A stretch of 64,000 bases of DNA, taken from NCBI GenBank assembly GCA_027452205.1, contig DAIDGV010000015.1, positions 11,111 through 75,110 of the forward strand. Reading direction: 5' to 3'. The DNA comes from a candidate division FCPU426 bacterium (GTDB taxonomy: Bacteria; Oederibacteriota; Muellerivitia; Muellerivitales; Muellerivitaceae). Below, one piece after another: positions 1,420 to 21,887 of this stretch. Below the pieces are notes generated by a model, which was given only the letters and a program-made list of their open reading frames with translations, had not been told where the DNA came from and did not search any database. Made by a program: the position numbers and the translations under genes. Numbering within the stretch: position 1 is the stretch's first letter; each line of letters begins with the position of its first letter.

Positions 1420-2535
1420 TCAGTCAAAGGGTGATTTTTGCTTTTCACGTAGGGCCGCCAGCTTCACGGCCGCCTCTTCTTGGTCTACTAAAGGTTGGAA
1501 CTTCTTCTTTTCATTGGACTTCATATAGGCTTCGTGAGCGGTGATCTTGCCCTCTTCATAGAAATTCATCAGGCACTGATCCATGGTCTGCATCCCCTGC
1601 TTGGCGCCCAACTCGATAAGTGAATTAAGACCGGACACCTTACCGGTTCTTATCAAGTTGGGAAGGCTTTTGTTATAGGTCAAAACCTCGATAGCGGCAC
1701 AACGACCCTTCCCGTCCTTGGTCGGACAAAGCTGTTGGGCCACGATGCCCTTGGTGCTGGAAGCCAGGGCCCCGCGGGCCTTTTCCCGTTCATCCGAAGG
1801 GAAAACATTAATGACGCGGTCAATGGTCTTGGCGGCGGAATTGGTGTGCAGGGTCCCAAAGACCAGAATGCCCATTTCCGCGGCGGCAATGGCCAAGGAG
1901 ATGGTTTCATAATCGCGCATTTCACCGACCAGGATGATATCCGGGTCTTGGCGCATGGAAGAACGCAGCGCCGCCTTGAACGAATGGGTGTCCCGATGCA
2001 CTTCCCGCTGGGTTATCTTGCACTTTTTGACCGGATGAACGAATTCGATCGGGTCCTCGATGGTTAGGATGTTCCCTTCCCGGTTATCATTGATCTCGTC
2101 GATCATGGCCGCCAAGGTCGTGGATTTACCCGAGCCAGTGGGGCCGGTAACGAGGATCAATCCCCGCTTTACTTTACAAAGTTCCCGGACCACCGGTGGC
2201 ATCCCTAGCTGTTCAAGGGTCAGGATCTTGGTCGGAATGGTACGGAAAACCGCGGCAATACCTTGTTGGTTGAAAAAGACATTGCAACGGAAACGGGCAA
2301 CCCCCGGCACCTCATAGGCATAGTCGTAATCATGCCTTTGCCAGCACAACTGCCATTGTTCCGGGCTCATGGTTTCATACAACAGCCCTTGCAGCATTTC
2401 TTCCGTTAGGACCCAGTCTGCCAGGGGCACCAATTCCCCTTTGGCACGCAAAAGAGGTTGATTACCTACCGTTAAATGCATATCGGAGGCTTTGCGTTCC
2501 ACCATCGTGCGGAAGAGGTCGTCAATGGCCGCCAT
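1420..2535 (-). CDS. pilT: type IV pilus twitching-motility (retraction) ATPase PilT
   Basis: Walker A GPTGSGKSTT, TIEDPIEF, and a GEMRD...TLHT signature typical of PilT/PilU secretion-family ATPases. 371 aa. Confidence 0.85.
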   Translation of the reverse strand: MAAIDDLFRTMVERKASDMHLTVGNQPLLRAKGELVPLADWVLTEEMLQGLLYETMSPEQWQLCWQRHDYDYAYEVPGVARFRCNVFFNQQGIAAVFRTIPTKILTLEQLGMPPVVRELCKVKRGLILVTGPTGSGKSTTLAAMIDEINDNREGNILTIEDPIEFVHPVKKCKITQREVHRDTHSFKAALRSSMRQDPDIILVGEMRDYETISLAIAAAEMGILVFGTLHTNSAAKTIDRVINVFPSDEREKARGALASSTKGIVAQQLCPTKDGKGRCAAIEVLTYNKSLPNLIRTGKVSGLNSLIELGAKQGMQTMDQCLMNFYEEGKITAHEAYMKSNEKKKFQPLVDQEEAAVKLAALREKQKSPFD

Positions 2536-3569
2536 TAGCTTTCCTCCGCCAAAATTTCATCCGCTTGGACCTGGGTGATCTTTTTGGCCGCCACCAGTTC
2601 TTTGAGGGCAGTTTCCATGGTCTGCATGCCGATCGCGCCGCCAGTGGAGATCATTGAGGGTATCTTGAAATAATCCCCTTCCCGGATCACATTGGCCATG
2701 GCCAGGGTGTTCACCAATATTTCAAAGGCCGGGACCATCGCAGTTCCTTCGGAATTGATGAGAAGACGCTGAGAAACAATACCCACTAAGCTTTCCGAAA
2801 GACTGGCCACCGCTTGGGATTGCTCCGATGCCGGGAACAGATTGACCACCCGGGAGATAGTCGCCGCCGCCGACCCCGTGTGCAAGGTGCCGATGACCAA
2901 GTGGCCCGTTTCTGCCGCGGTCAGGGCCAGACTCATGGTCTCATAATCGCGCATTTCCCCCACCATAATGATGTCCGGGTCCTCGCGCAAAGCGCTTCGC
3001 AAGGCCGAAGCGAAGGTTTCCGTATGCGGGCCCACGCTGCGTTGGTTGACCAGTGATTTTTTTCGTTTGTGGAGGAACTCGATCGGATCCTCGATGGTGA
3101 TGATATGTTCTTCGCTTTCATCATTCATATAATCGACCAGTGCCGCGCAGGTGGTTGACTTGCCCGACCGTCCCGGGCCCGTGATGAGGATCAGTCCTTG
3201 ATTGGCGTCGGAGAATCTTTTTAGGATGGGTGGCAATCCCATCTCGTCGATGGACATCACCCTGGAACTAAAATGACGGAAAACCGCGTCCAGGCCCTTC
3301 CGCTGGCGGTAAATGTTCACACGGAAGCGTTCCCCATTTTCCATGGCATAGGCCGTATCCAGTTCCCAATCCTGGGCCAGTTTGGCCTTCATGTTATCGT
3401 CGAGTATCTCCATGATGAGCTTGTCGCATTCGGTCGCGGAAAGGGGTTGGGGTGTAATGGGTTGCAAACGGCCCAATTGACGCACGAAAACCGGCGCTTC
3501 GGAAGCGATGTGAAGGTCCGAACCCTTACGGGAAATACAAGCTTGGAGGTATTTATCGATCTGGGCCAT
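2535..3569 (-). CDS. pilU: second PilT/PilU-family retraction ATPase (PilU-like paralogue)
   Basis: GPGRSGKSTT, TIEDPIEF and GEMRDYETM..TGHLV..TLHT motifs. It overlaps the pilT start by 1 nt, indicating translational coupling. Confidence 0.75.
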   Translation of the reverse strand: MAQIDKYLQACISRKGSDLHIASEAPVFVRQLGRLQPITPQPLSATECDKLIMEILDDNMKAKLAQDWELDTAYAMENGERFRVNIYRQRKGLDAVFRHFSSRVMSIDEMGLPPILKRFSDANQGLILITGPGRSGKSTTCAALVDYMNDESEEHIITIEDPIEFLHKRKKSLVNQRSVGPHTETFASALRSALREDPDIIMVGEMRDYETMSLALTAAETGHLVIGTLHTGSAAATISRVVNLFPASEQSQAVASLSESLVGIVSQRLLINSEGTAMVPAFEILVNTLAMANVIREGDYFKIPSMISTGGAIGMQTMETALKELVAAKKITQVQADEILAEES

Positions 3570-3673
3570 GGCTCTTTCGAACCGCCGAAGGATGAAGTGA
3601 ACTTAGGAAGGATTATAAAGTAAAAAGGCCGGCAACACTGGAGAATTTGTCGTTTTAGTACCGGAATAGATGA

Positions 3674-4060
3674 TCAGCGCTTGGGGCCCTTTTTGCGCAT
3701 GCTCTCAAACACCTGCTTCATGATAACGTCTTGGACCTCTTTGTCCATATCTACGAATGAGATCCGGTCATAGTGGTGGGTAATACCGTTGATGACCACG
3801 TCCTCACCGCCGACCACTTTGCCAATAACATAGGCTGGCATTCCGTCCGGCAACTCGATCTCCATGTCCAACTTGGAATCGAGTGGGCTATGTTTGCTGA
3901 CGCTGAACTTGAGACCACCTACCGATATATCCCGGCTGCGGCCAACATTGAAATTGCTGCGGAAGATGGAATCGTTCCTGAAGTTGCGGTATTTAACAGG
4001 AACCGTCAGTTCTACGCGGACAAAACGGCGTTTTTCCTGCCTCTTCGGTTGTTCTTCCAT
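3674..4060 (-). CDS. PilZ-domain c-di-GMP-binding protein
   Basis: Canonical PilZ motifs are present: RRFVR (RxxxR) near the N-terminus and DISVGG (DxSxxG). The gene lies 104 bp upstream of, and co-directional with, pilU-pilT. Confidence 0.8.
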   Translation of the reverse strand: MEEQPKRQEKRRFVRVELTVPVKYRNFRNDSIFRSNFNVGRSRDISVGGLKFSVSKHSPLDSKLDMEIELPDGMPAYVIGKVVGGEDVVINGITHHYDRISFVDMDKEVQDVIMKQVFESMRKKGPKR

Positions 4061-12816: not shown

Positions 12817-12894
12817 TGGCGGGGTTGACGGGGCTCGAACCCGCGACCTCCTGCGTGACAGGCAGGCGCTCTAACCAAGCTGAGCTACAACCCC
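12817..12894 (-). tRNA. tRNA-Asp (anticodon GTC), CCA encoded
   Basis: The reverse complement is GGGGTTGTAGCTCAGC...CCTGCCTGTCACGCAGG...GGTTCGAGCCCCGTCAACCCCGCCA. It folds as a cloverleaf with anticodon loop CTGTCAC and closely resembles canonical bacterial tRNA-Asp. Confidence 0.9.
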
Positions 12895-13032: not shown

Positions 13033-16000
13033 TTAGGAAACCGGCTGGGGTTCCAACTCACCCGCTGGTTTTTCAAGTTTGAATTTCTTTACCGCGAAAC
13101 GGGACATAGTGTTCTTGAGGACACTCTTTGCCGAAATTTTGTACAAGTATTCGCCCACCGGCATCTTGGTAGCGTCCCAAATAGTGACAGCGTAGGCGCC
13201 GCCTTCTTTCTTTTCTTCTAATTTGGCCGCCAACCCGCCGGTCGCGTCGAAGATCTCCAGGGTGACGTTGCAGTCTTCCTTGAGGAAATAATAAAAACGC
13301 ACCGGGCCCGGCTGAGGTGGATTGGGCAAGATACCCAGGTCCTCAACGAAGGTAGCGTCGATCAAACCCTGATCAACGGTGACATTGATATCTTTCACTT
13401 TCAGCACCGGGAACTGATCACTGTGCAACCGGATCTCGTACTTACCCTCTTTGAGCATCGAAAAATTAAACTTACCTTCTACATCCGTCGCGCAGGAAGC
13501 GACCACTTTGTCGCCCTGGGCCATTTCAACTTTTGTCCCCTCGATGGGCGTCTTTCCATCCTTGCGGAGGAAATGACCGAAGACTTTACCCAGACGGTCG
13601 ATGATGATCTTACGGCTGGCGGCCAAAGCGCCGGGCTTCCCTTTTTTACTGACCGCCGCTACGTGAAAATACCAGGTACCTTGCGCGACATCTTTGAGGG
13701 TCACCATACGTTCAGTGGTAAAAGTGTCCTGGGGTGTCAGTGTTTCGACCGGATTCGCGCTTATCTTGTAGAAATAGCCTTTAGGCGTGAAGGATCCGTC
13801 ATGGCGGTCCTCCCAGGTAAAGACCGGCGATTGGTCATTGATGGCTTCCCCTTCGCGCGGGTGGGTGGGGCTGGCGATGACCGGTGGCGGCATCTCGCCC
13901 GCCGCGATCAGCACCAGGAAATGGGTCGGCGCGGAAAGATTGCCCGCTTTGTCCCGGGCGGTCACATGGAAGTACCAAGTACCCGGTTCATCGGCCTTCA
14001 CTTCTACCGAGGAACCCATCAGTTTGAGGGCGTTATCCGGCATAGGCACCGTGTCCGGCTTTTTATCGAACGAATGGTAGTAGCAATCGATGCCTGACAG
14101 TTTGGGAGCCGAATCGATCTTGATCTCGACCTGGGTCTCCGAATACCAGCGTTCCCGGTCCGGATGGCTGGTCGAAGCCACATGGGGCGCCTCGGGCTTT
14201 TGTACGTCGATCTTCACCTTGTAATGGGCCGTTTGTTCGCTGATATTTCCCGCCCGGTCCTTGGCGACCAAATGAAAGTACCAGACACCGCTTTCCTGTT
14301 TGGGGAGTTCCAGACGGGTTTTGTTGAGGAATATGCCGTTCTCACCGTTAAGCTTGGTATTGGGACTCAGGTCAAAGGCGTAGTAATAGCCCACAATACC
14401 CGTCGCGTCCGAGGGGGGCAGCCAAGTAAGCACCGGCAAGGGATTGGAGCTCCAATCGTCGCTGGAGTGCGTCGGGCTGGAAACCTGGGGTGTGCCTACG
14501 CTTGCGTCAGACAAACAGGCCGCCGTGGCATTACCCTCGAACTGCTCGTTCCCCATTTTGTCGACGGCGTGTACGGAATAATAGTAGACGGTGTTTTCTT
14601 GAAGCTGAGAGCCTTTGTCGATGTAAGAGATCTCTTTGACCTCGCCATCGGTCGAGACCAGCTTGGGTTTTTGGCTTTCGATCCAGCGATAGACCCGGTA
14701 AAAGTTCAAGCCGGACACCCGGTCTTCCGCCGGGGACCACTTGAGTTCAATATCCCCGCCCGCCAAGGGAGTCGCCTTCAGCTGGACCACCGGGGTTGGG
14801 GGCGCGATGTCGATGGAAACGGCCACCATCTCGGTTTCCGGATATTCTTCCACGTTGCCCGCGGCGTCCTTGGCCCGGCAACGGAAAGCGTAACGCATAC
14901 CATCCTGGCCCTGATAAGCAGCATTCTTGTTGTTCACATTGACCAGCCAATCAGTCCAAGCACCTGTCTCGCCCACCTTGACCTGCACGTCAAAAGCCAC
15001 CACTTCGCCGCTGGCGTCGGTAGCGTCCCAGTTCAGGGCCAGTTGGGTCTTATCCATCAGGGCCGGTAAACGAACCATGGTGGATTTGGGCGGGGTCATA
15101 TCGACCCAAATGGGGTAATGGGTGGCTTCTTTACTGACATTGCCCGCCTTATCCTTGGCGGCGATGTGGAAGTACCACTTTCCGTCCTTCAAGGCCGGAG
15201 CGGTCATAAAGGTGCGGTTGACCCATTCGCCGTTGCCCGGGCCAGGAATGGTATGTGGATGCTGGTCGATGACCACGTAATAGCCGTCGATGCCCGCCAT
15301 GTCCTGGGGCACTTCCCAGGTCAATTTGGGCGCGGCGGACTTGACCCAGCGATGAACCGGGTGGGTCAGGCACTTCACCACCGGGGCAACAGCGTTGGAA
15401 TCGATCATCATTTTGAAATGAGCCAAGGCGCCGATATTTTGGGCCTTGTCCTTCGCGCAAACATGGGCATACCAAGTGCCGTCTTCCGGCAGATTAAAGG
15501 TGACGCTCCGGCTAGTGGTCCAGGCCATCTCTTTAAGCGACGGCATCCAGTTCTCTTCCCGATTGAAGATCGTGTAATAGCCTTCGATGCCCGAAAGATC
15601 AATGGGATCTTTCCAGGTCAGTTCCACATGACGGCCCGCGAACCAGCGGTTCGGGTCCGGATGGGTGGGCGAGGTCAATTCAGGCGCTTCGACATGGGTA
15701 TCCAGGCGAACGGTGTAAACGGTCGACTCTTCACTGATGTTGCCTGCCTTATCGGCGCAAAGGACCGACAGGTAATGCTCGCCATCTCGGGGAATATCCA
15801 GATTGATCTCGCCCTTTTCGATATAGCTAGAGCCCTGAGCCGCCGGTTTCACCCGCGGATCGTCCGTAAAGGTGTAGTAATAACCTGCCACACCCGAAAG
15901 GTCGCTGGGCGATGTCAGTTGGAAGACCGCCTTGGTCTTGGAATACCACTCGTTCTGGTCCGGATGGGTAGAAGAAGTGATCGTCGGCTGGGACACTTTG

Positions 16001-18603
16001 GTGTCGATATGCAGGGCATAGTGTCCAGCTTTTTTGGAGAGATTACCGGCCTTGTCCTTGGCGGTGATATGGAAATACCAAAGACCGTCCTCGGTCAATT
16101 CAAAGGTGAGGCTCTTTTGTTGGGTGAAAAGCGCCGTCTCCGGCTCAGGGATCGTATCCACCCGGCGGTCGATGCTGTAGTAATAACCGTCGATACCCGA
16201 AAGGTCTTCCGGTTCTTCCCAGGTCAGGGTCACCGCCCGGGCCCGGTACCACTTCTTCTCGTCGGGATGGGTGAAAGAATTGACTACTGGGGTCTTAGCT
16301 TCGGTATCTATACAGATCTTAAAATGGGTCGCTTGAGAGGAAAGATTCTCCGCCCGGTCTTTCGTGCGCACATGGAAATAGGAAACACCATCTTTGAGCT
16401 TGTCGACATTGATCTTGGTCTTGGTCGTCCAACGGGCATCCTCGGGCAGGGGCATCGCATTGGGGTCTTCATTGAGCAAGTAATAGAATCCATCAGTGCC
16501 CGACAGGTCCTGGGTCGGCACCAAGGTTAGTTCCAGCTTGCTCTTGGAATACCATTCGTCGCTCTCGGGATGTGTGGGCGAGGAAACCGCCGGGGCTTGT
16601 GCTTTGGTATCGATGCGGATGGGATAATGGGCCGCTTGAAGACCCACATTGCCAACCGCGTCCAGGGTAGAGATATGGATAAACCAAATATCGTCGTCCA
16701 GGGGCCCCAGGGTAATGCGGTTCTCCTTGGTCAGGTCCCCTTTGCTCGGTCCCGGCACCGTGTCGGGCACTTTGTCGGCCTTCACGTAATAACCCACCAC
16801 ACCGGACAGATCATCGGGCGTTTCCCAAGCGATGACTGGCGTCGGGTTCGGGACCCACTTGTCCGGATCAGGATGAGTGGAGCTGAATACCTTCACTGGC
16901 GGCAAAGCCTCGGTATCGATGTTCACCCGGTAATGGGCCGCTTCCATTCCGATATTGCCGGCCTCATCCACACCCGCCACATGGATATGCCAAATGCCCT
17001 GGGAAAGGCCCTGCAGGACAATGCGGTTCGAATCCGTATAAGTGGCCGCGGCTGGATCGGGGACCGAATCCGCTTTTCGATCGAGAACATAGTAATAACC
17101 GGTCAAATGAGCCGGGGCGGCCAAGTGCAATTCGACCATATCGCTCTTTTCCCACTTGTCCTGCTGGGGGTGGCTGGTCGAGGTGACTACCGGTTTATGC
17201 ACCACCGGGGTTCGCAAAGACAGGGTCTCGGTGACCGCCAAAGAAGAGGACCGATGGGCGCTGATAACTTTAAATTCATACTCCGTATCAGCCTTGAGAC
17301 CGGTCAAAAAGACCCGGTGTTTCGTGCGGTGGGCCTTGTCCTGAAAGGTTAAATTCAGTGCTGGGGCATCTTCCTTCACCCCGTAATGCACCTCGGAAGT
17401 GGCGGCAATATCCGTGTTCCAGGAAAGCACCACACTTTGGGAAGTGATCCTTTCGATGTGAAGTTCCGAGATGACCGGCATCCGGGCCATATCAAAGGTG
17501 GACCGAAGCAAGGAGGCGTGGTTCTCGCTGCCGGCGTAAAGATAGTCATAGAACACGCAGAAAGACCGGACGCCTTCCATATCTCCCGCGTAAGAGGTTT
17601 TCCACTCCACACCATCGAGGGTCTTTAAGACCCGGCCCGAATTACCCGTTCCCACGAAGAGGGTGTTCTCGAAAACTTCCATGCAATAACAATTCATTTC
17701 CCGGGCGCTTTCGTAAGCCACCAGCCAGTCCCGGCCATTGTTCGTACGGTAGATACGCACACCCTTCGATCCCGAGGTGCCCGCATAAAGAGCGCCGTCG
17801 AATTCCTTCAGGCATTGAATGAAACTTTGTCCGGTAGAAGCCACCTCTTCCCAGTTCAGGCCGTCCTCAGTGCAGAAGATCAACCCGCTGGGATAGGTGC
17901 CCACATAGAGCTTGTTCTTGAAAACACCCATGGCGGTCACTGCCGCCTCACTCAAGTTTGCCACCGCGTTCCAGTGAAGGCCGTCATAGGCGTAGATCTT
18001 CCCCTGGGAACTGGTGCCGGCATAAAGGCGGTTCTTGAACTCGATCAGGGTATGGATACGGTCTTCGCCGGTAGCGAAGGATTCCCGCCAGCTTTCACCG
18101 TCAGTCGTGTAGTAAATGGAACCGTTCAGATTGGTCCCCGCGAAGAGGACCTTTTCCTTGCCGGGCGTGCCATAGGCAGTCAGGCAATAGATCTGGGTGG
18201 AATAATCACCGCCGTCCTTGACCCGGGGGTCCGGCGTGAAGAACTTGGTATCGGTCTTGGTAACTAAATTGGACTTCCAAGAACCTGCCGTACCGCTATT
18301 GGAGTAGAAGACCTTGTCTCGGCCTGTGGCCGCGAAGATCTTCCCTTTGAACTCCGCCAGGGAATAGAACATGGAAATCTCTCTAAAATCCTCCACCGTC
18401 TCGAAATAAGCGGGGGCGGCTGTGGAGAAATAAAGGTCAATGGCGTTCTTGAGATTATCGAGGGCTTCTTTGGGATTACGGCCTTGGGCCTGGCAACCCG
18501 GTAAAGCGACACAGCGCGCCAACACATGGCTCGCCCGGGTCTCCAATTCGATCTGGAACTCGTAGAGGAAAGTTCTATTTTGAGCGTTGTCGTCTTTTTT
18601 CAC
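13033..18603 (-). CDS. giant (1856 aa) multidomain surface-type protein. Domains in order: N-terminal HicB/UPF0150-like domain, ~6-bladed beta-propeller, Fn3-like domains, ten tandem ~100-aa beta-sandwich modules, carboxypeptidase-regulatory-like domain, and a T9SS/FlgD-Ig-like C-terminal sorting domain
   Basis: GTG start at 18601-18603. The N-terminus is YEFQIELETRASHVLARCVALPGCQAQGRNPKEALDNLKNAIDLY, matching the HicB/UPF0150 signature. Propeller blades end in ..LYAGT/..LYVGT. Ten modules begin S[ST]THP and contain GYYY, WYFH and DKAGN. The C-terminus PVRFYYFLKEDCNVTLEIFDATGG...YAVTIWDATKMPVGEYLYKISA follows the T9SS-CTD/FlgD-Ig pattern. No N-terminal signal peptide. Confidence 0.8.
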   Translation of the reverse strand: MKKDDNAQNRTFLYEFQIELETRASHVLARCVALPGCQAQGRNPKEALDNLKNAIDLYFSTAAPAYFETVEDFREISMFYSLAEFKGKIFAATGRDKVFYSNSGTAGSWKSNLVTKTDTKFFTPDPRVKDGGDYSTQIYCLTAYGTPGKEKVLFAGTNLNGSIYYTTDGESWRESFATGEDRIHTLIEFKNRLYAGTSSQGKIYAYDGLHWNAVANLSEAAVTAMGVFKNKLYVGTYPSGLIFCTEDGLNWEEVASTGQSFIQCLKEFDGALYAGTSGSKGVRIYRTNNGRDWLVAYESAREMNCYCMEVFENTLFVGTGNSGRVLKTLDGVEWKTSYAGDMEGVRSFCVFYDYLYAGSENHASLLRSTFDMARMPVISELHIERITSQSVVLSWNTDIAATSEVHYGVKEDAPALNLTFQDKAHRTKHRVFLTGLKADTEYEFKVISAHRSSSLAVTETLSLRTPVVHKPVVTSTSHPQQDKWEKSDMVELHLAAPAHLTGYYYVLDRKADSVPDPAAATYTDSNRIVLQGLSQGIWHIHVAGVDEAGNIGMEAAHYRVNIDTEALPPVKVFSSTHPDPDKWVPNPTPVIAWETPDDLSGVVGYYVKADKVPDTVPGPSKGDLTKENRITLGPLDDDIWFIHISTLDAVGNVGLQAAHYPIRIDTKAQAPAVSSPTHPESDEWYSKSKLELTLVPTQDLSGTDGFYYLLNEDPNAMPLPEDARWTTKTKINVDKLKDGVSYFHVRTKDRAENLSSQATHFKICIDTEAKTPVVNSFTHPDEKKWYRARAVTLTWEEPEDLSGIDGYYYSIDRRVDTIPEPETALFTQQKSLTFELTEDGLWYFHITAKDKAGNLSKKAGHYALHIDTKVSQPTITSSTHPDQNEWYSKTKAVFQLTSPSDLSGVAGYYYTFTDDPRVKPAAQGSSYIEKGEINLDIPRDGEHYLSVLCADKAGNISEESTVYTVRLDTHVEAPELTSPTHPDPNRWFAGRHVELTWKDPIDLSGIEGYYTIFNREENWMPSLKEMAWTTSRSVTFNLPEDGTWYAHVCAKDKAQNIGALAHFKMMIDSNAVAPVVKCLTHPVHRWVKSAAPKLTWEVPQDMAGIDGYYVVIDQHPHTIPGPGNGEWVNRTFMTAPALKDGKWYFHIAAKDKAGNVSKEATHYPIWVDMTPPKSTMVRLPALMDKTQLALNWDATDASGEVVAFDVQVKVGETGAWTDWLVNVNNKNAAYQGQDGMRYAFRCRAKDAAGNVEEYPETEMVAVSIDIAPPTPVVQLKATPLAGGDIELKWSPAEDRVSGLNFYRVYRWIESQKPKLVSTDGEVKEISYIDKGSQLQENTVYYYSVHAVDKMGNEQFEGNATAACLSDASVGTPQVSSPTHSSDDWSSNPLPVLTWLPPSDATGIVGYYYAFDLSPNTKLNGENGIFLNKTRLELPKQESGVWYFHLVAKDRAGNISEQTAHYKVKIDVQKPEAPHVASTSHPDRERWYSETQVEIKIDSAPKLSGIDCYYHSFDKKPDTVPMPDNALKLMGSSVEVKADEPGTWYFHVTARDKAGNLSAPTHFLVLIAAGEMPPPVIASPTHPREGEAINDQSPVFTWEDRHDGSFTPKGYFYKISANPVETLTPQDTFTTERMVTLKDVAQGTWYFHVAAVSKKGKPGALAASRKIIIDRLGKVFGHFLRKDGKTPIEGTKVEMAQGDKVVASCATDVEGKFNFSMLKEGKYEIRLHSDQFPVLKVKDINVTVDQGLIDATFVEDLGILPNPPQPGPVRFYYFLKEDCNVTLEIFDATGGLAAKLEEKKEGGAYAVTIWDATKMPVGEYLYKISAKSVLKNTMSRFAVKKFKLEKPAGELEPQPVS
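13594..17208 (-). repeat. intragenic tandem array of ~10 diverged ~300-bp coding repeats (protein modules of ~100 aa), interrupted by an Fn3-like insert at ~14494-15093
   Basis: Module starts map to roughly 17178, 16884, 16581, 16275, 15975, 15672, 15372, 14478, 14175 and 13872. The repeats are diverged; nucleotide-level self-similarity is expected but was not computed. Confidence 0.55.
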
Positions 18604-18733
18604 GGTGGACCCTGGTGCGAATTACCCGCGGCGCGCCTGATTTGCGGCTTCTTGCCGAAAATCACGGCTTGGCAGTGCCAGTTTCTGAACGAGAAACTGG
18701 CATGGGTCGGTTATTTTAGACCAATTAGCAGAA

Positions 18734-18756
18734 GGTTGATAACAACATTATCAACC
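18734..18756 (-). terminator. candidate mutS terminator hairpin
   Basis: GGTTGATAA-caaca-TTATCAACC, a perfect 9-bp stem ~45 nt past the mutS stop. The minus-strand tail TTCTGCTAATT is only moderately U-rich. Confidence 0.3.
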
Positions 18757-18802: not shown

Positions 18803-21442
18803 TTATTCCTGGATCTTCTTTTTCCATTCGGCCAAAAGATTCAAGGCATCCCGGGGAGTCAGGTCGTCCAATTCCAGGCTTTTAAGCTCTTCCAAAATGG
18901 GGTGGCTGGTCCCCGCCCCACCGAAGAAAGTGAGCTGATTGAGCCCTTCCGTGGAGGGGACTTGCGGTTGAGGCTCATCGGTTTCGGAGGCCTTTTCTTT
19001 TTTGACCGTGAAAGGATTGCCGGTCTCCAAGCTGGCCAGTATCTTCTTGGACCTTTCGACCACCGACTTGGGCACTCCCGCCAAACGGGCCACCTGGATG
19101 CCATAGCTCTTGTCCGTGCCGCCTTCCACGATCTTGCGTAGGAAAAGGATCTGCTCGTTCCATTCCCGCACCGCGATATTGAAGTTCTTCACGTTCGGGA
19201 AGGAGGAGGCCAAACGGGTCAGTTCGTGATAATGGGTAGCAAAGAGGGTGCGGGCCTTTAGCTTTTGGGCGATATGTTCCACCACCGCCCAAGCGATGGA
19301 GACTCCGTCAAAGGTGGATGTTCCCCGGCCAACCTCATCCAAGATAAGAAGGCTTCGGTTGGTGGCGTGATTGAGGATATTGGCGGTCTCGACCATTTCC
19401 ACCATGAAGGTACTTTGGCCCTGGGTAAGGGCATCCGAAGCGCCAACTCGGGAGAAAATACGGTCTACAATGCCGATCTTCATCTTCTTCGCGGGCACAT
19501 AGAACCCGACCTGGGCCATCAGCGCAAGCAGGGCCACCTGGCGGATATAGGTACTCTTCCCCGCCATATTAGGACCGGTCAAGACCACCACTTCGACCCC
19601 ATCCACTCCTAAGTGAGTGTCATTGGGCACGAATTGGTCCGAGGAAAGAATGCGGTCCAACACTGGGTGGCGGCCATCCACAATGGCGAGCTCAGAAGAA
19701 TCATCCACTTCAGGCCGCACATGACGGCCTGCGTCGGCCACTGTGGCCATACAACCGAATACGTCCAACTCGGCGATAATGCGGGCCACCCGTTGGAGCC
19801 GGTGCAGTTCCTTGGCCACTTGCGAGCGAATCGCGTCAAAAAGTTCATACTCGGTCCGGTCAGCCTTGTCCTGTGCCCCCAGTATCTTGCCTTCCATGTC
19901 TTTCAATTCTTGGGTGATGAAGCGCTCCGCATTCACCAGGGTCTGCTTGCGGTGGTAATCCTTGGGCACCTTGTCCAGGTTTGCTTTTGAGACCTCGATG
20001 TAATAACCGAAGACCGAGGTGTAACGCACTTTGAGGGAACTGATACCGGTCTTTTTCTTTTCCTTCTCTTCCAGGTTCGCGATCCATTGTTTGCCCTCAA
20101 TGGAGGCGCTTTTGAACTCGTCCAATTCAGCGTTATAGCCGGCCTTGATAAGCCCGCCTTCTTTTAAGGCTAGGGGCGGTTCATCGGCGATGGATTTCTC
20201 CAAAAGGTGGTGGATCTCTTTGAGGTTGTCCCACCCTTCCACCTTTTCGCGCAGCCATTCAGCCTTAAAACCTGAAAGAACTTGGTGGATCTTGGGCAAA
20301 AGGGCCAGGGTATTGCGTAAAGCCACCATATCCCGGGCATTGGCGGTACCACAGCCGATACGGCCCGAAAGACGTTCTAGGTCGGAAACTTCCCTGAAGA
20401 AATCCCTCAAATTTTCCAGGTCGCCCTTGCGGGATAAAAGCTCTTCCACCGCGTCCTGTCGGTGTTTGATCTGGGAAACCGAAGTCAGGGGCGTGACCAA
20501 CCATTGACGCAAGAGCCGCCCGCCCATCGAAGTGACCGTTTCATCCAACACCGATAGCAGTGTTCCTTCTTTGCCGCCATCCCTCATGGATTTGACCACT
20601 TCCAAATTGCGTTGGGTGGCTGCGTCCAGGACCATCCCCTCACCCACTTGGAAGGTCGAAAGGGTCACTAAGTGGGAAAGAACGCTATGAGTGGTCTCTT
20701 TGAGATATTGGATGATGGCCCCCGCCGAACAGATAGCCTGGTTCTGGTCTGACAGACCGAATCCATCCAGGGACTTCACTTGAAAATGTTCCAGCAGGAC
20801 TTCTTTGCATTCGTCCCCGGAGAATTTCCAGTCTTCCATGTGGGACTTCTTGGTGTCATTGAGGGACTTGATGACCTCCGCCCATTCCGATACGTCGGGC
20901 TGGGTATTGGCGACGAGTATCTCAGAGGGATTGAACTTTGATAGTTCATTCGTCGCTACGGAGAACCGGTCTGAACCATGCAATTCGCAGGTCTTGAACT
21001 CACCCGTGGTCACATCCACGATGGCTAGACCTAAAGCCTGGGTGGAATAAGAAAGGGCGGCTAGATAATTGTTGGATTTCTCATCCAGCATAGCGGCGGA
21101 AAGCACCGTGCCCGGGGTGATGACCCGGGTAACCTCGCGTTTGACCAAACCCTTGGCCTGGGCCGGGTCTTCGGTCTGTTCACAGATGGCAATGGAAAAA
21201 CCCGCCTTGACCAAGCGGGCAATATAGTTCTCGGAGGCGTGGTAAGGGATACCCGCCATTGGCACCCGGGTAGCGCCAGCACCCCGGGCGGTCAGGGTCA
21301 GGTTCAGGACCCGGGCCGCTGTCTTGGCGTCCTCGAAGAACATCTCGTAAAAATCGCCAAGACGGAAAAAGAGCATCTCGTCCTTATGGACGCGTTTCAT
21401 TTCCAGATATTGCCGCATCATCGGCGTTAATTCTTCGGACAT
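18803..21442 (-). CDS. mutS: DNA mismatch repair protein MutS
   Basis: 879 aa. N-terminus MTPMMRQYLEMK, Walker A GPNMAGKST, and TFATHYHELT motifs. Confidence 0.9.
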   Translation of the reverse strand: MSEELTPMMRQYLEMKRVHKDEMLFFRLGDFYEMFFEDAKTAARVLNLTLTARGAGATRVPMAGIPYHASENYIARLVKAGFSIAICEQTEDPAQAKGLVKREVTRVITPGTVLSAAMLDEKSNNYLAALSYSTQALGLAIVDVTTGEFKTCELHGSDRFSVATNELSKFNPSEILVANTQPDVSEWAEVIKSLNDTKKSHMEDWKFSGDECKEVLLEHFQVKSLDGFGLSDQNQAICSAGAIIQYLKETTHSVLSHLVTLSTFQVGEGMVLDAATQRNLEVVKSMRDGGKEGTLLSVLDETVTSMGGRLLRQWLVTPLTSVSQIKHRQDAVEELLSRKGDLENLRDFFREVSDLERLSGRIGCGTANARDMVALRNTLALLPKIHQVLSGFKAEWLREKVEGWDNLKEIHHLLEKSIADEPPLALKEGGLIKAGYNAELDEFKSASIEGKQWIANLEEKEKKKTGISSLKVRYTSVFGYYIEVSKANLDKVPKDYHRKQTLVNAERFITQELKDMEGKILGAQDKADRTEYELFDAIRSQVAKELHRLQRVARIIAELDVFGCMATVADAGRHVRPEVDDSSELAIVDGRHPVLDRILSSDQFVPNDTHLGVDGVEVVVLTGPNMAGKSTYIRQVALLALMAQVGFYVPAKKMKIGIVDRIFSRVGASDALTQGQSTFMVEMVETANILNHATNRSLLILDEVGRGTSTFDGVSIAWAVVEHIAQKLKARTLFATHYHELTRLASSFPNVKNFNIAVREWNEQILFLRKIVEGGTDKSYGIQVARLAGVPKSVVERSKKILASLETGNPFTVKKEKASETDEPQPQVPSTEGLNQLTFFGGAGTSHPILEELKSLELDDLTPRDALNLLAEWKKKIQE

Positions 21443-21491: not shown

Positions 21492-21887
21492 TCAGAGGAC
21501 TATTCTTTTAACGCCATTTTTCATCGAAGCAACATTGAAATTGAGAAGTAATCCAATTCTTTTTTCCGTTAATTTCAAATACGTCAAAAGTTGAGCCTCA
21601 TGGACAGGTTTAACTTCTTCTACGGCTTTCAGCTCAACAATAACCTGATCCTCGACCAAAAGATCAATCCTAAAACCAGCGTCTAACTCAACTTCTTTAT
21701 ATCGAACAGGGACCGGCACTTGCTGTTCAACCTTCAAAGCTCGTGATTTCAACTCATACAACAAACAATGTTCATAGGCACTTTCCAACAACCCGGGGCC
21801 CAATTGAGTATGAACCGCATAAGCCGAATCCACGACCGCACCAGATATCTTATTCGTTTCTTCAGAAATCAAATTTTGGTTTTTCAT
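21492..21887 (-). CDS. GxxExxY-family protein (PD-(D/E)xK nuclease-like fold)
   Basis: 131 aa with the motif GLLESAYE and family-typical layout (DSAYAVHTQLGPGLLESAYEHCL...RIDLLVEDQVIVELKA). The CDS is bracketed within 5-9 nt on each side by inverted-repeat arms. Confidence 0.7.
   Translation of the reverse strand: MKNQNLISEETNKISGAVVDSAYAVHTQLGPGLLESAYEHCLLYELKSRALKVEQQVPVPVRYKEVELDAGFRIDLLVEDQVIVELKAVEEVKPVHEAQLLTYLKLTEKRIGLLLNFNVASMKNGVKRIVL

What the first reader, a model, noticed from the sequence alone, without database searches (positions are those of the whole stretch)
18370..18603. HicB/UPF0150-like antitoxin-fold domain fused to the N-terminus of the giant secreted-type protein, with no signal peptide and no HicA partner
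Residues ~12-60 (YEFQIELETRASHVLARCVALPGCQAQGRNPKEALDNLKNAIDLY) match the HicB/UPF0150 signature (LPGC.[ST]QG...EAL.N...AI.LY). The ORF begins at GTG 18601-18603 with an in-frame stop upstream, so there is no room for a signal peptide. The rest of the protein (C-terminal sorting domain, adhesin-like repeats) looks extracytoplasmic. No HicA-like ORF is present in the 199-bp upstream gap. This is either an unusual domain recruitment, for example a non-classical export or tethering signal, or a remnant of a HicB gene fused by loss of its stop.
Basis: partly seen in the sequence, partly recalled or inferred. Interest (0 to 1): 0.6.

Follow-up and report, generated by a model that had tools for sequence, protein, structure and literature searches.

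The report
HicB-fold head on conserved giant protein
A small domain normally found in a toxin-neutralising protein (HicB) is permanently built into the front end of a 1,856-residue surface-type protein that all sampled members of the candidate phylum FCPU426 carry, and the protein has no export signal, so how it reaches its place of action is unknown.

Summary
ORF 13033-18603 (-) starts at GTG 18601-18603, with an in-frame TAA six codons upstream. Residues ~12-62 form a HicB/UPF0150-type beta-beta-beta-alpha domain. Single Pfam hits are below threshold. Support comes from an exhaustive HMMER search, consistent weak hits in all seven N-termini scanned, and a predicted structure whose best PDB matches are HicB and UPF0150 proteins.

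It is not an error or a recent stop-loss fusion. The same N-terminus, joined directly to a BNR-type beta-propeller, occurs in 21 species-level genomes (labelled FCPU426, Firestonebacteria or unclassified) and in deeper clades. Complete copies in those genomes are 1847-1877 aa. dN/dS is 0.08-0.25. The conserved locus is mutS - giant gene - tRNA-Asp.

No member has a signal peptide or transmembrane segment. No HicA and no DNA-binding domain was found. The C-terminal ~90 residues resemble a T9SS type A / PorU-like sorting domain, below curated cut-offs.

Best reading: an anciently recruited HicB fold serves as a protein-docking or capping module of the propeller head, not as an antitoxin. Where the protein sits and how it gets there are unresolved. 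This is a new architecture of a known fold. Interest is moderate.

The parts
13033..18603 (-). Giant gene, 1856 aa, intact ORF. It is a core gene of FCPU426-type genomes.
   Evidence: Orthologues occur in 21 species genomes; the complete copies are 1847-1877 aa. Deeper clades: P0023, P0027, P0029, P0030.
18601..18603 (-). GTG start codon. An in-frame TAA lies at 18622-18624, and an SD-like AGGG lies ~8 nt upstream.
   Evidence: 21 of 22 related loci also start at TTG or GTG, most with AGG(G/T) 6-10 nt upstream.
18571..18603 (-). Residues 1-11: a Lys-rich, A-rich-codon leader predicted to be disordered (MKKDDNAQNRT).
   Evidence: pLDDT <50 for residues 1-12. Mean identity 0.35 across the family, but the K/QKK pattern recurs.
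18418..18570 (-). Residues 12-62: HicB/UPF0150-fold domain (three strands, LPGC turn, long helix).
18373..18417 (-). Residues 63-77: connector. Residues 67-72 form a strand only when the propeller is present in the model, so this stretch probably packs against or completes the propeller (inferred).
   Evidence: DSSP shows strand E67-72 in the 375-residue model. The same stretch is coil with pLDDT ~60 in the 78-residue model.
17494..18372 (-). Residues 78-370: beta-propeller with Asp-box/BNR-like 'DG..W' and 'LYAGT' repeats.
   Evidence: AF2 pLDDT >90 and generic propeller matches. Pfam DUF6242 and weak NCBIfam BamI / F510_1955 hits.
17209..17478 (-). Residues 376-465: fibronectin type III domain.
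   Evidence: Pfam fn3, E=9.9e-19 for the whole protein, best stretch residues 379-448.
13579..17196 (-). Residues 470-1675: rod region. It holds 7 + 3 repeats of ~100 aa ('THP..W...GYYY...DG.WYFH..A.D.AGN', Big_13 / OmpL47-type), interrupted by two fn3-like domains at residues 1171-1370.
   Evidence: The seventh repeat (~residue 1079) was placed by eye, not by the regex.
13339..13578 (-). Residues 1676-1755: carboxypeptidase-regulatory-like (transthyretin-type) domain.
   Evidence: Pfam CarboxypepD_reg E=3.7e-6, below the cut-off. Precomputed hits on orthologue fragments agree.
13075..13338 (-). Residues 1756-1843: C-terminal Ig-like domain resembling a T9SS type A / PorU C-terminal domain. 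It is the most conserved part of the protein.
   Evidence: The family profile hits the PorU CTD (6za2_A residues 1057-1146, E=2.3e-4) and FlgD (E=0.05). TIGR04183 matches 8 of 10 members, best E 4.3e-5; the window copy scores 13.9 bits against a cut-off of 23. Mean identity 0.67.
18734..18756 (-). Conserved imperfect palindrome GGTTGATAATGTTGTTATCAACC. A TAAAAT (18713-18718) lies 15 nt downstream. Probably an operator plus promoter of the giant gene.
   Evidence: It occurs once in the window, with 0 expected by chance. It occurs once in each of 10 related loci, always upstream of the giant gene, and looser versions occur in further loci.

Best explanation
The N-terminal ~75 residues are a genuine HicB/UPF0150-fold domain. 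It was recruited long ago into a single giant protein family and has been kept by selection since. It no longer works as an antitoxin.

Shown:
- The fold and the homology.
- The fusion is present in every orthologue across several deep clades.
- The family lacks the C-terminal RHH/HTH DNA-binding domain of HicB, a neighbouring hicA, and any signal peptide or transmembrane segment.
- The two ends of the protein (HicB core plus propeller, and the C-terminal Ig-like domain) are more conserved than the ~1,200-residue rod of Ig-like repeats between them.

Inferred:
- The domain has kept the generic job of the HicB N-domain, which is to bind another protein or itself. It now does this as a docking, capping or oligomerising module fixed to the BNR-type propeller 'head'.
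- The head sits at one end of a rod of constant domain count. The other end is a PorU/T9SS-like Ig domain that could dock onto a PorV/PorQ-type barrel.
- Because there is no Sec or Tat signal, the polypeptide is not a classical T9SS cargo. Either it acts inside the cell or it leaves by a route that does not use an N-terminal signal peptide. This step is open.
For: - Homology and fold.
- Conserved fusion and start.
- Purifying selection on the domain: dN/dS 0.08-0.25, similar to the propeller. Mean identity is 0.62 for the HicB core, against 0.53 for the repeats and 0.67 for the C-terminal domain.
- Vertical inheritance in a housekeeping locus, miaB - TPR/SPOR - mutS - giant - tRNA-Asp.
- No signal peptide or TM segment in the seven members scored, while five neighbouring exported proteins have classic signal peptides.
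- No HicA and no other conserved partner gene.
- Connector strand 67-72 is predicted only in the presence of the propeller.
- The C-terminal domain is PorU / T9SS type A-like.
- In one deep clade the gene always follows a PorV/PorQ-family gene.
Against: - No direct evidence shows what the domain binds, or whether it oligomerises.
- Model coordinates could not be inspected, so contact between the HicB domain and the propeller is inferred from secondary structure only.
- Every domain other than the HicB-like one (BNR propeller, fn3, Big_13/OmpL47-type, CarboxypepD_reg, T9SS-like C-terminal domain) is of a type usually found outside the cytoplasm. That clashes with the missing signal peptide and is left unexplained.
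- The PorV/Q synteny is weak evidence. The whole region is syntenic in that clade, and an intrinsic terminator separates the two genes in L023.
- The HicA search was a crude motif scan of ~480 kb, not of whole genomes.
Confidence: 0.5

Rival explanations
1. Export or tethering element. The leader plus the fast-folding HicB-like domain is the recognition or retention element of a Sec-independent route that puts the giant protein on the cell surface. It would be analogous to the N-terminal retention module of LapA-type T1SS adhesins, with the C-terminal Ig domain docking on a PorV/Q-type barrel.
For: - No signal peptide in any member, although the rest of the protein is made of extracytoplasmic-type domains.
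- The C-terminal domain is T9SS/PorU-like.
- A PorV/Q-family gene lies next to the gene throughout one clade.
- PorV-family genes exist in two lineages that carry the family.
Against: - The exhaustive search found this domain on only one family of large proteins, not on a set of cargoes.
- No RTX repeats and no conserved LapG-type dialanine site (one chance match in 18 members); no T1SS genes nearby.
- The known T9SS takes its cargo from the periplasm after Sec export (established knowledge; see abstracts listed).
- The C-terminal tail after the Ig domain is variable or absent.
- Conserved cysteines are isolated and often replaced by S, A or V, so there is no sign of structural disulfides.
Confidence: 0.2
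2. Antitoxin in trans. The domain still binds and neutralises a HicA-type toxin encoded elsewhere in the genome, either sequestering it on a large scaffold or sensing it.
For: The HicB N-domain is the HicA-binding part of HicB (established from the HicAB structures matched). The signature residues (LPGC..G...EA) are retained.
Against: - No hicA in the window, in 420 kb of related loci, or among the tested upstream genes.
- No DNA-binding domain.
- The gene is a vertically inherited core gene in a housekeeping locus, unlike mobile toxin-antitoxin modules.
- No PADLOC match.
Confidence: 0.08
3. Nucleic-acid-binding domain. The fold is dsRBD- and RNase-H-like, and the domain would bind RNA, for example the protein's own long 5' leader, to limit synthesis of a very costly protein.
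For: - Fold neighbours include dsRBDs and a 'putative RNA-binding protein', 3kwr.
- The start codon is conserved as non-ATG.
- The promoter and leader region is conserved and carries a palindrome.
Against: - dsRBD matches have low probability (0.1-0.4), against mostly 0.9-1.0 for HicB/UPF0150.
- The 5' leader downstream of the TAAAAT is poorly conserved, and its length varies by ~100 nt.
- No Rfam match.
- The palindrome lies upstream of the -10 element, so it is DNA, not mRNA.
Confidence: 0.07
4. Artefact: a wrong start, an assembly or frameshift error, or a recent fusion of a hicB gene to the downstream gene by loss of its stop codon.
For: Two related contigs do carry disrupted copies (L016 and L017), and one short contig has a frameshift (L001). 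These show that such errors occur in this kind of data.
Against: The same in-frame junction occurs in 21 species-level genomes and in deep clades with only 27-33% identity in the domain. An in-frame stop lies 0-27 codons upstream of the aligned start wherever this was examined, and dN/dS is well below 1.
Confidence: 0.02

Closest known systems
HicB antitoxin N-terminal domain and stand-alone UPF0150 proteins (Pfam PF15919, PF21748; PDB 6hpb, 6g26, 4p78, 2dsy, 1wv8)
   Same: Same beta-beta-beta-alpha core, the same 'LPGC..G.t..EA...(a)i' signature and a similar size (~50-60 residues). These are the best sequence and fold matches.
   Different: No RHH or HTH DNA-binding domain follows it, and no hicA lies next to it. 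It is fused to ~1,780 further residues, it sits on a vertically inherited core gene, and the window copy scores below the Pfam gathering scores.
T9SS proteins with a type A C-terminal domain, in particular components that keep it (PorU, PorZ)
   Same: The C-terminal Ig-like domain has the PNP...V.L.I.D..G....G.Y...WD....G.Y.Y pattern, and the family profile hits the PorU CTD. The protein combines a propeller with Ig-like domains. In one clade a PorV/PorQ-family gene is its neighbour.
   Different: There is no Sec signal peptide in any member, whereas the neighbouring CTD protein and the PorV/Q protein of L023 both have one. TIGR04183 scores 13.9 bits for the window copy against a cut-off of 23, with a best E of 4.3e-5 among members. 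In FCPU426 members a 10-20-residue tail follows the domain.
LapA / MpIBP-type giant T1SS adhesins with an N-terminal retention module
   Same: A giant protein rich in Ig-like repeats, with no signal peptide and a small folded domain at the extreme N-terminus.
   Different: No RTX repeats, no C-terminal T1SS signal, no conserved LapG dialanine site, and no ABC/MFP/TolC genes nearby. The domain fold is different. The length and sequence are unusually conserved for an adhesin.

Membership tests
HicB / UPF0150 fold superfamily (domain level) | Significant sequence-profile similarity to family members | tested here: met
   An exhaustive HMMER search gave ~125 small proteins at E 1e-8 to 1e-3 for a 1.84e9-protein library. 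All 10 sampled hit both Pfam HicB_lk_antitox and UPF0150; seven reach a gathering score. All 7 N-termini scanned hit both Pfam models, best E 1.7e-4. The window copy alone is below the gathering score, 17.6 against 27 bits.
HicB / UPF0150 fold superfamily (domain level) | Three-stranded sheet plus long helix, with the LPGC turn | tested here: met
   AF2 predicts strands 18-22, 27-31 and 38-41 and helix 44-61, pLDDT 81-96. The top PDB and viral fold matches are HicB and UPF0150 proteins, mostly probability 0.9-1.0. This rests on a predicted structure, not a solved one.
HicAB type II toxin-antitoxin system (functional antitoxin) | C-terminal RHH or HTH DNA-binding and dimerisation domain | tested here: not met
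   The domain is followed directly by a beta-propeller. No RHH or HTH hit anywhere in the 1856 aa.
HicAB type II toxin-antitoxin system (functional antitoxin) | Adjacent hicA toxin gene | tested here: not met
   The 199-bp upstream gap has no such ORF. The 82-aa antisense ORF has no Pfam hit. The upstream genes tested in four orthologous loci are TPR-like (weak), rhomboid, OmpH and DUF4136. No HicA motif in the window or in 420 kb of loci. A hicA elsewhere in the genome is not excluded.
T9SS cargo or component with a type A C-terminal domain | C-terminal domain matching TIGR04183 / PF18962 | tested here: inconclusive
   TIGR04183 matches 8 of 10 members (best E 4.3e-5; window copy 13.9 bits against a cut-off of 23). 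The family profile hits the PorU CTD at E=2.3e-4. There is no PF18962 hit.
T9SS cargo or component with a type A C-terminal domain | N-terminal Sec signal peptide for entry into the periplasm | tested here: not met
   No hydrophobic N-terminal stretch in the seven members scored, and an in-frame stop lies 0-27 codons upstream of the aligned start where examined.
T9SS cargo or component with a type A C-terminal domain | T9SS core genes present in the same genome | not testable with these tools
   Only 64 kb of this genome and about +/-10 kb of relatives are held. PorV-family genes were seen in two deep clades, but none in the FCPU426 loci held.
LapA-type T1SS adhesin with retention module | RTX nonapeptide repeats, a C-terminal T1SS signal and a LapG dialanine site | tested here: not met
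   No GGxGxD motif in any of 18 members. [TAP]AA[GV] occurs in the first 200 residues of only 1 of 18 members. 'FAATG' belongs to blade 1 of the propeller.

The most novel reading that the evidence does not exclude
The family marks an export logic that has not been described. A giant protein with a T9SS/PorU-type C-terminal domain reaches the outer membrane or cell surface without Sec or Tat. Its HicB-fold N-terminal module, with the Lys-rich leader, would act as the cytoplasmic recognition or retention element of a dedicated, single-substrate route.
Probability: 0.1. Interest if true: 0.85.

Novelty: new variant of a known kind. Interest (0 to 1): 0.5.

Why it matters
The result shows that the HicB antitoxin fold can be taken out of toxin-antitoxin biology and fixed as a structural or docking module of a phylum-wide core protein.

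It also defines a well-conserved giant protein family with a fixed locus, a fixed domain order and its own promoter motif. That family can serve as a marker for an almost unstudied candidate phylum.

Its make-up is contradictory: extracytoplasmic-type domains and a T9SS-like C-terminal domain, but no signal peptide in any member. If the protein is on the surface, the way it gets there is new. If it is cytoplasmic, it is a rare case of a long Ig-domain rod working inside a bacterial cell. Either answer would be informative, and localisation experiments can reach it.

Tried and rejected
- A PDB sequence-profile search with the seven N-termini found only pyruvate-kinase noise.
- The word-indexed homologue search with the N-terminal 95 aa found a single orthologue fragment. 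The exhaustive search was needed to see the HicB relatives.
- The third homologue search, with the C-terminal domain profile, returned only orthologue fragments. It therefore gave no paralogues whose N-termini could be compared.
- The 'FAATG' at residues 90-94 was considered as a LapG-type cleavage site and rejected. It is the LYAGT-type strand of propeller blade 1 and is not conserved as dialanine in deep clades.
- 'ALPGC' was considered as a lipobox and rejected. There is no hydrophobic h-region, and it is the canonical HicB LPGC turn.
- The flagellar gene cluster upstream of the P0029-clade copy suggested flagellar type III export. This was not pursued as an explanation: the cluster ends at flgK, a signal-peptide-bearing CTD protein and a PorV/Q gene lie in between, and FCPU426 loci show no such link.
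- Small ORFs conserved downstream of the gene ('cl8') turned out to be antisense translations of tRNA-Asp.
- Rfam found nothing in the 5' region. PADLOC found nothing.


Full report
**What is at the coordinates.** The finding lies at the 5' end of a 1856-codon ORF on the minus strand (13033-18603). Translation starts at GTG 18601-18603. The in-frame codons upstream read TAA (18622-18624) TTC GCA CCA GGG TCC ACC, so no other ATG, GTG or TTG can precede the domain. There is also no room for a signal peptide. mutS ends 199 bp upstream, at 18803. Residues 12-62 read FLYEFQIELETRASHVLARCVALPGCQAQGRNPKEALDNLKNAIDLYFST. A regex for the HicB-type signature hits only this place in the six-frame translation of the window.

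**Is the HicB/UPF0150 similarity real?** On its own the window protein is below Pfam's thresholds: HicB_lk_antitox E=0.0045, 17.6 bits against a cut-off of 27, and UPF0150 E=0.17. A profile search of PDB sequences found nothing. Four other lines of evidence agree with each other:
- All seven N-termini scanned (window plus six orthologues) hit both Pfam models independently, best E 1.7e-4 and 3e-4.
- A two-sequence profile was searched exhaustively against 1.84 billion representative proteins and gave 141 hits at E<=1e-3 for the whole library. Apart from family members and fragments, most are 60-130-residue proteins aligned to query residues ~16-60. All ten sampled hit both HicB_lk_antitox and UPF0150, and seven reach a gathering score.
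- PHROG 497 ('HicB-like') matches at E=0.0022.
- AlphaFold2 predicts strands 18-22, 27-31 and 38-41 and helix 44-61, with pLDDT 81-96 over residues 11-60. The same elements appear in the 375-residue model. Foldseek against the PDB ranks TTHA0281 (UPF0150), E. coli HicB, the B. pseudomallei HicB N-domain, 3kwr, Y. pestis HicB3 and TTHA1013 at the top. Probabilities are mostly 0.9-1.0 and rmsd 0.9-2.6 A over 38-53 columns. E-values are only 0.05-2.3 because the domain is short. The named top hits in the viral structure library are also HicB proteins.

I therefore accept the domain as a member of the HicB/UPF0150 fold superfamily.

**Is the fusion real and old?** Yes.
- The closest database relative is a 1.2-kb ENA contig. 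It has the same N-terminus at 72% identity, a TTG start, an in-frame stop upstream and the same junction into the propeller.
- Five more orthologue fragments with intact 5' ends show the same N-terminus.
- A scan of one genome per GTDB species found the gene in 21 genomes. These are labelled candidate division FCPU426, Ca. Firestonebacteria or unclassified. A few carry Proteobacteria or Acidobacteriaceae labels, which I take to be loose labels (inference).
- In every one of these genomes the protein begins with the domain. In 20 of the 21 the aligned TTG/GTG/ATG start is preceded by an in-frame stop with no other start codon between; in L011 an upstream in-frame ATG exists that the other orthologues do not support.
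- Complete copies in these genomes are 1847-1877 aa.
- The exhaustive search added deeper branches: P0021, P0023, P0027, P0029 (2155 aa) and P0030. These have 27-46% identity in the domain and the same overall architecture.
- In the deep clades the start follows an in-frame stop by 0-27 codons, with no hydrophobic upstream peptide.
- dN/dS of the domain is 0.08-0.25, like the propeller and the repeats, with dS near saturation.
- Across 18 full-length members the mean identity to the window copy is 0.62 for the HicB core, 0.63 for the propeller, 0.67 for the C-terminal domain and 0.53 for the repeats.

A sequencing error, a wrong start or a recent stop-loss fusion is therefore excluded.

**The protein as a whole.** The domain order is as follows:

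| Residues | Domain |
|---|---|
| 1-11 | Lys-rich leader, predicted disordered |
| 12-62 | HicB-like core |
| 63-77 | Connector |
| 78-370 | Beta-propeller with Asp-box-like 'DG..W' repeats |
| 376-465 | fn3 |
| 470-1170 | Seven ~100-residue Big_13/OmpL47-type repeats |
| 1171-1370 | Two fn3-like domains |
| 1376-1675 | Three more repeats |
| 1676-1755 | CarboxypepD_reg-like domain |
| 1756-1843 | C-terminal Ig-like domain |

- The family profile of the C-terminal Ig-like domain hits the PorU CTD (6za2_A, E=2.3e-4) and FlgD (E=0.05).
- TIGR04183, the T9SS type A sorting domain, matches 8 of 10 members at up to E=4.3e-5. The window copy scores 13.9 bits against a cut-off of 23.
- No member scored has a hydrophobic stretch compatible with a signal peptide or a transmembrane helix: the maximum 19-residue Kyte-Doolittle mean is 1.27. 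Five neighbouring exported proteins of the window have textbook signal peptides.
- Conserved cysteines are isolated, about one per domain, and are often replaced by S, A or V. Structural disulfides are therefore not indicated.

**Genomic context.**
- In FCPU426 genomes the order miaB - TPR/SPOR protein - mutS - (0-6 kb of variable genes) - giant gene - tRNA-Asp(GTC) is conserved. Regions further downstream vary.
- The variable genes tested upstream in four loci are TPR-like (weak hit only), rhomboid, OmpH and DUF4136. None is HicA.
- No HicA-like motif was found in the window or in 420 kb of related loci. This was a crude regex scan.
- A 23-bp imperfect palindrome (GGTTGATAATGTTNYTRTCAACC), followed ~15 nt later by TAAAAT, lies upstream of the gene. 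It occurs once in the window, with 0 expected by chance, and once in each of ten related loci. Looser versions occur in further loci.
- In the P0029 clade the gene follows flgK, then a ~554-aa protein with a signal peptide and a T9SS-like C-terminal domain, then a PorV/PorQ-family gene (NF033709, 117 bits against a cut-off of 90). This order is kept in the four further metagenomic loci as far as each contig reaches. However, the whole region is syntenic in that clade, and a terminator separates the PorV/Q gene from the giant gene. The association is therefore only suggestive.
- In the P0030 lineage the gene is divergent from an MBL-fold hydrolase gene and mutL. A PorV-family gene lies 8 kb away.

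**How it most likely works.**

*Shown:* a HicB-fold domain without the HicB DNA-binding domain, without an adjacent hicA, fixed at the N-terminus of a vertically inherited core protein, and selected as strongly as the propeller.

*Inferred:* it keeps the generic property of the fold, which is protein binding or self-association, and serves as a docking, capping or oligomerising module of the propeller head.
- One hint of tight coupling is that residues 67-72 form a strand only in the model that includes the propeller.
- With both termini the best conserved parts and a constant number of rod domains between them, the protein looks like a spacer or fibre of defined length. It would have a binding head at one end and a PorU-like Ig anchor at the other.

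The unresolved step is topology. All domains other than the HicB-like one are of extracytoplasmic type, yet the family cannot use Sec or Tat. I put ~0.5 on the docking or capping reading.

The rivals and their weights are:
- **Export or retention element of a Sec-independent route (0.2).** Against it: the domain is found on only this one family of large proteins, and RTX repeats and LapG features are absent.
- **Trans-acting HicA binder (0.08).**
- **Nucleic-acid-binding autoregulator (0.07).**
- **Artefact (0.02).** This is refuted.

**Comparison with what is known, and novelty.**
- At the domain level this is a new member of the HicB/UPF0150 superfamily.
- At the system level it fails two defining features of HicAB antitoxins, the DNA-binding domain and the neighbouring toxin gene.
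- It fails one defining feature of T9SS cargo, the signal peptide.
- It fails the defining features of LapA-type T1SS adhesins.
- I found no description of such an architecture in the held literature. Published work on FCPU426/Goldbacteria is limited to surveys and cellulase studies.

I rate it a new variant of a known kind, of moderate interest. The most novel reading still open, a dedicated signal-peptide-independent route for a protein with a T9SS-type C-terminal domain, would be of high interest, but it has only about a 0.1 probability on present evidence.

Noticed in passing
window 18601-18603; L001-L022 starts: The start codon of the giant gene is TTG or GTG in the window and in 21 of the 22 related loci. 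Only L019 uses ATG. Most have an SD-like AGG(G/T) 6-10 nt upstream and an A-rich Lys-codon leader. The two deepest clades (P0029, P0030) use ATG. This may be a conserved way of throttling initiation on a very costly gene.
   Followed up: partly
window 18734-18756 (-), TAAAAT at 18713-18718: A conserved 23-bp imperfect palindrome, GGTTGATAATGTTNYTRTCAACC, lies upstream of a -10-like box. It is found only in front of the giant gene, once per locus. It is a likely operator for an unknown regulator. Its 6-5-6 spacing differs from Fur-type boxes.
   Followed up: partly
window 18677-18701 (-): A perfect 10-bp stem-loop (GCCAGTTTCT-CGTTC-AGAAACTGGC) lies just downstream of the putative -10 box, so probably at the 5' end of the mRNA. 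It is not conserved in L001. L007 and L011 carry a different hairpin in a ~100-nt insertion.
   Followed up: no
window 12817-12894 (-): tRNA-Asp(GTC) lies 138 nt downstream of the giant gene on the same strand. It is conserved at this position in 8 of the 9 FCPU426-type loci scanned. The DNA beyond it differs between genomes, as expected for a tRNA-linked integration hot spot. Small ORFs called there are antisense translations of the tRNA.
   Followed up: yes
window 21492-21887 (-): A PD-(D/E)XK nuclease gene (PDDEXK_3) lies between the TPR/SPOR gene and mutS. It occurs only in the window and in L005, so it is an accessory insertion in an otherwise conserved housekeeping block.
   Followed up: no
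L023/L024 6835-9826; L028, L031, L032: In the P0029 clade a flagellar cluster (flgG-A-H-I-J...flgK) is followed by a signal-peptide-bearing protein with a T9SS type A-like C-terminal domain and by a PorV/PorQ-family barrel with a C-terminal fn3. T9SS-type parts therefore occur outside Bacteroidota, next to flagellar genes.
   Followed up: partly
L016 677-1708; L017 9998-10747: Two genomes carry disrupted copies. In L016 the copy is truncated after the propeller and followed by unrelated genes. L017 has a frameshift at ~residue 249. These are either assembly errors of long-read MAGs or real pseudogenes.
   Followed up: no
window 1420-4060 (-): From their N-terminal sequences (read by eye, not scanned against a family library), two tandem PilT-like ATPase genes are followed by a small PilZ-like gene. 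This would suggest type IV pilus retraction machinery in this organism.
   Followed up: no
window 13579-17196 (-): The ten ~100-residue repeats keep very regular ~101-residue spacing and a His-rich consensus (THP..W, WYFH, AHY). Their number is constant in FCPU426 members, which is unusual for repeat-rich surface-type proteins.
   Followed up: partly
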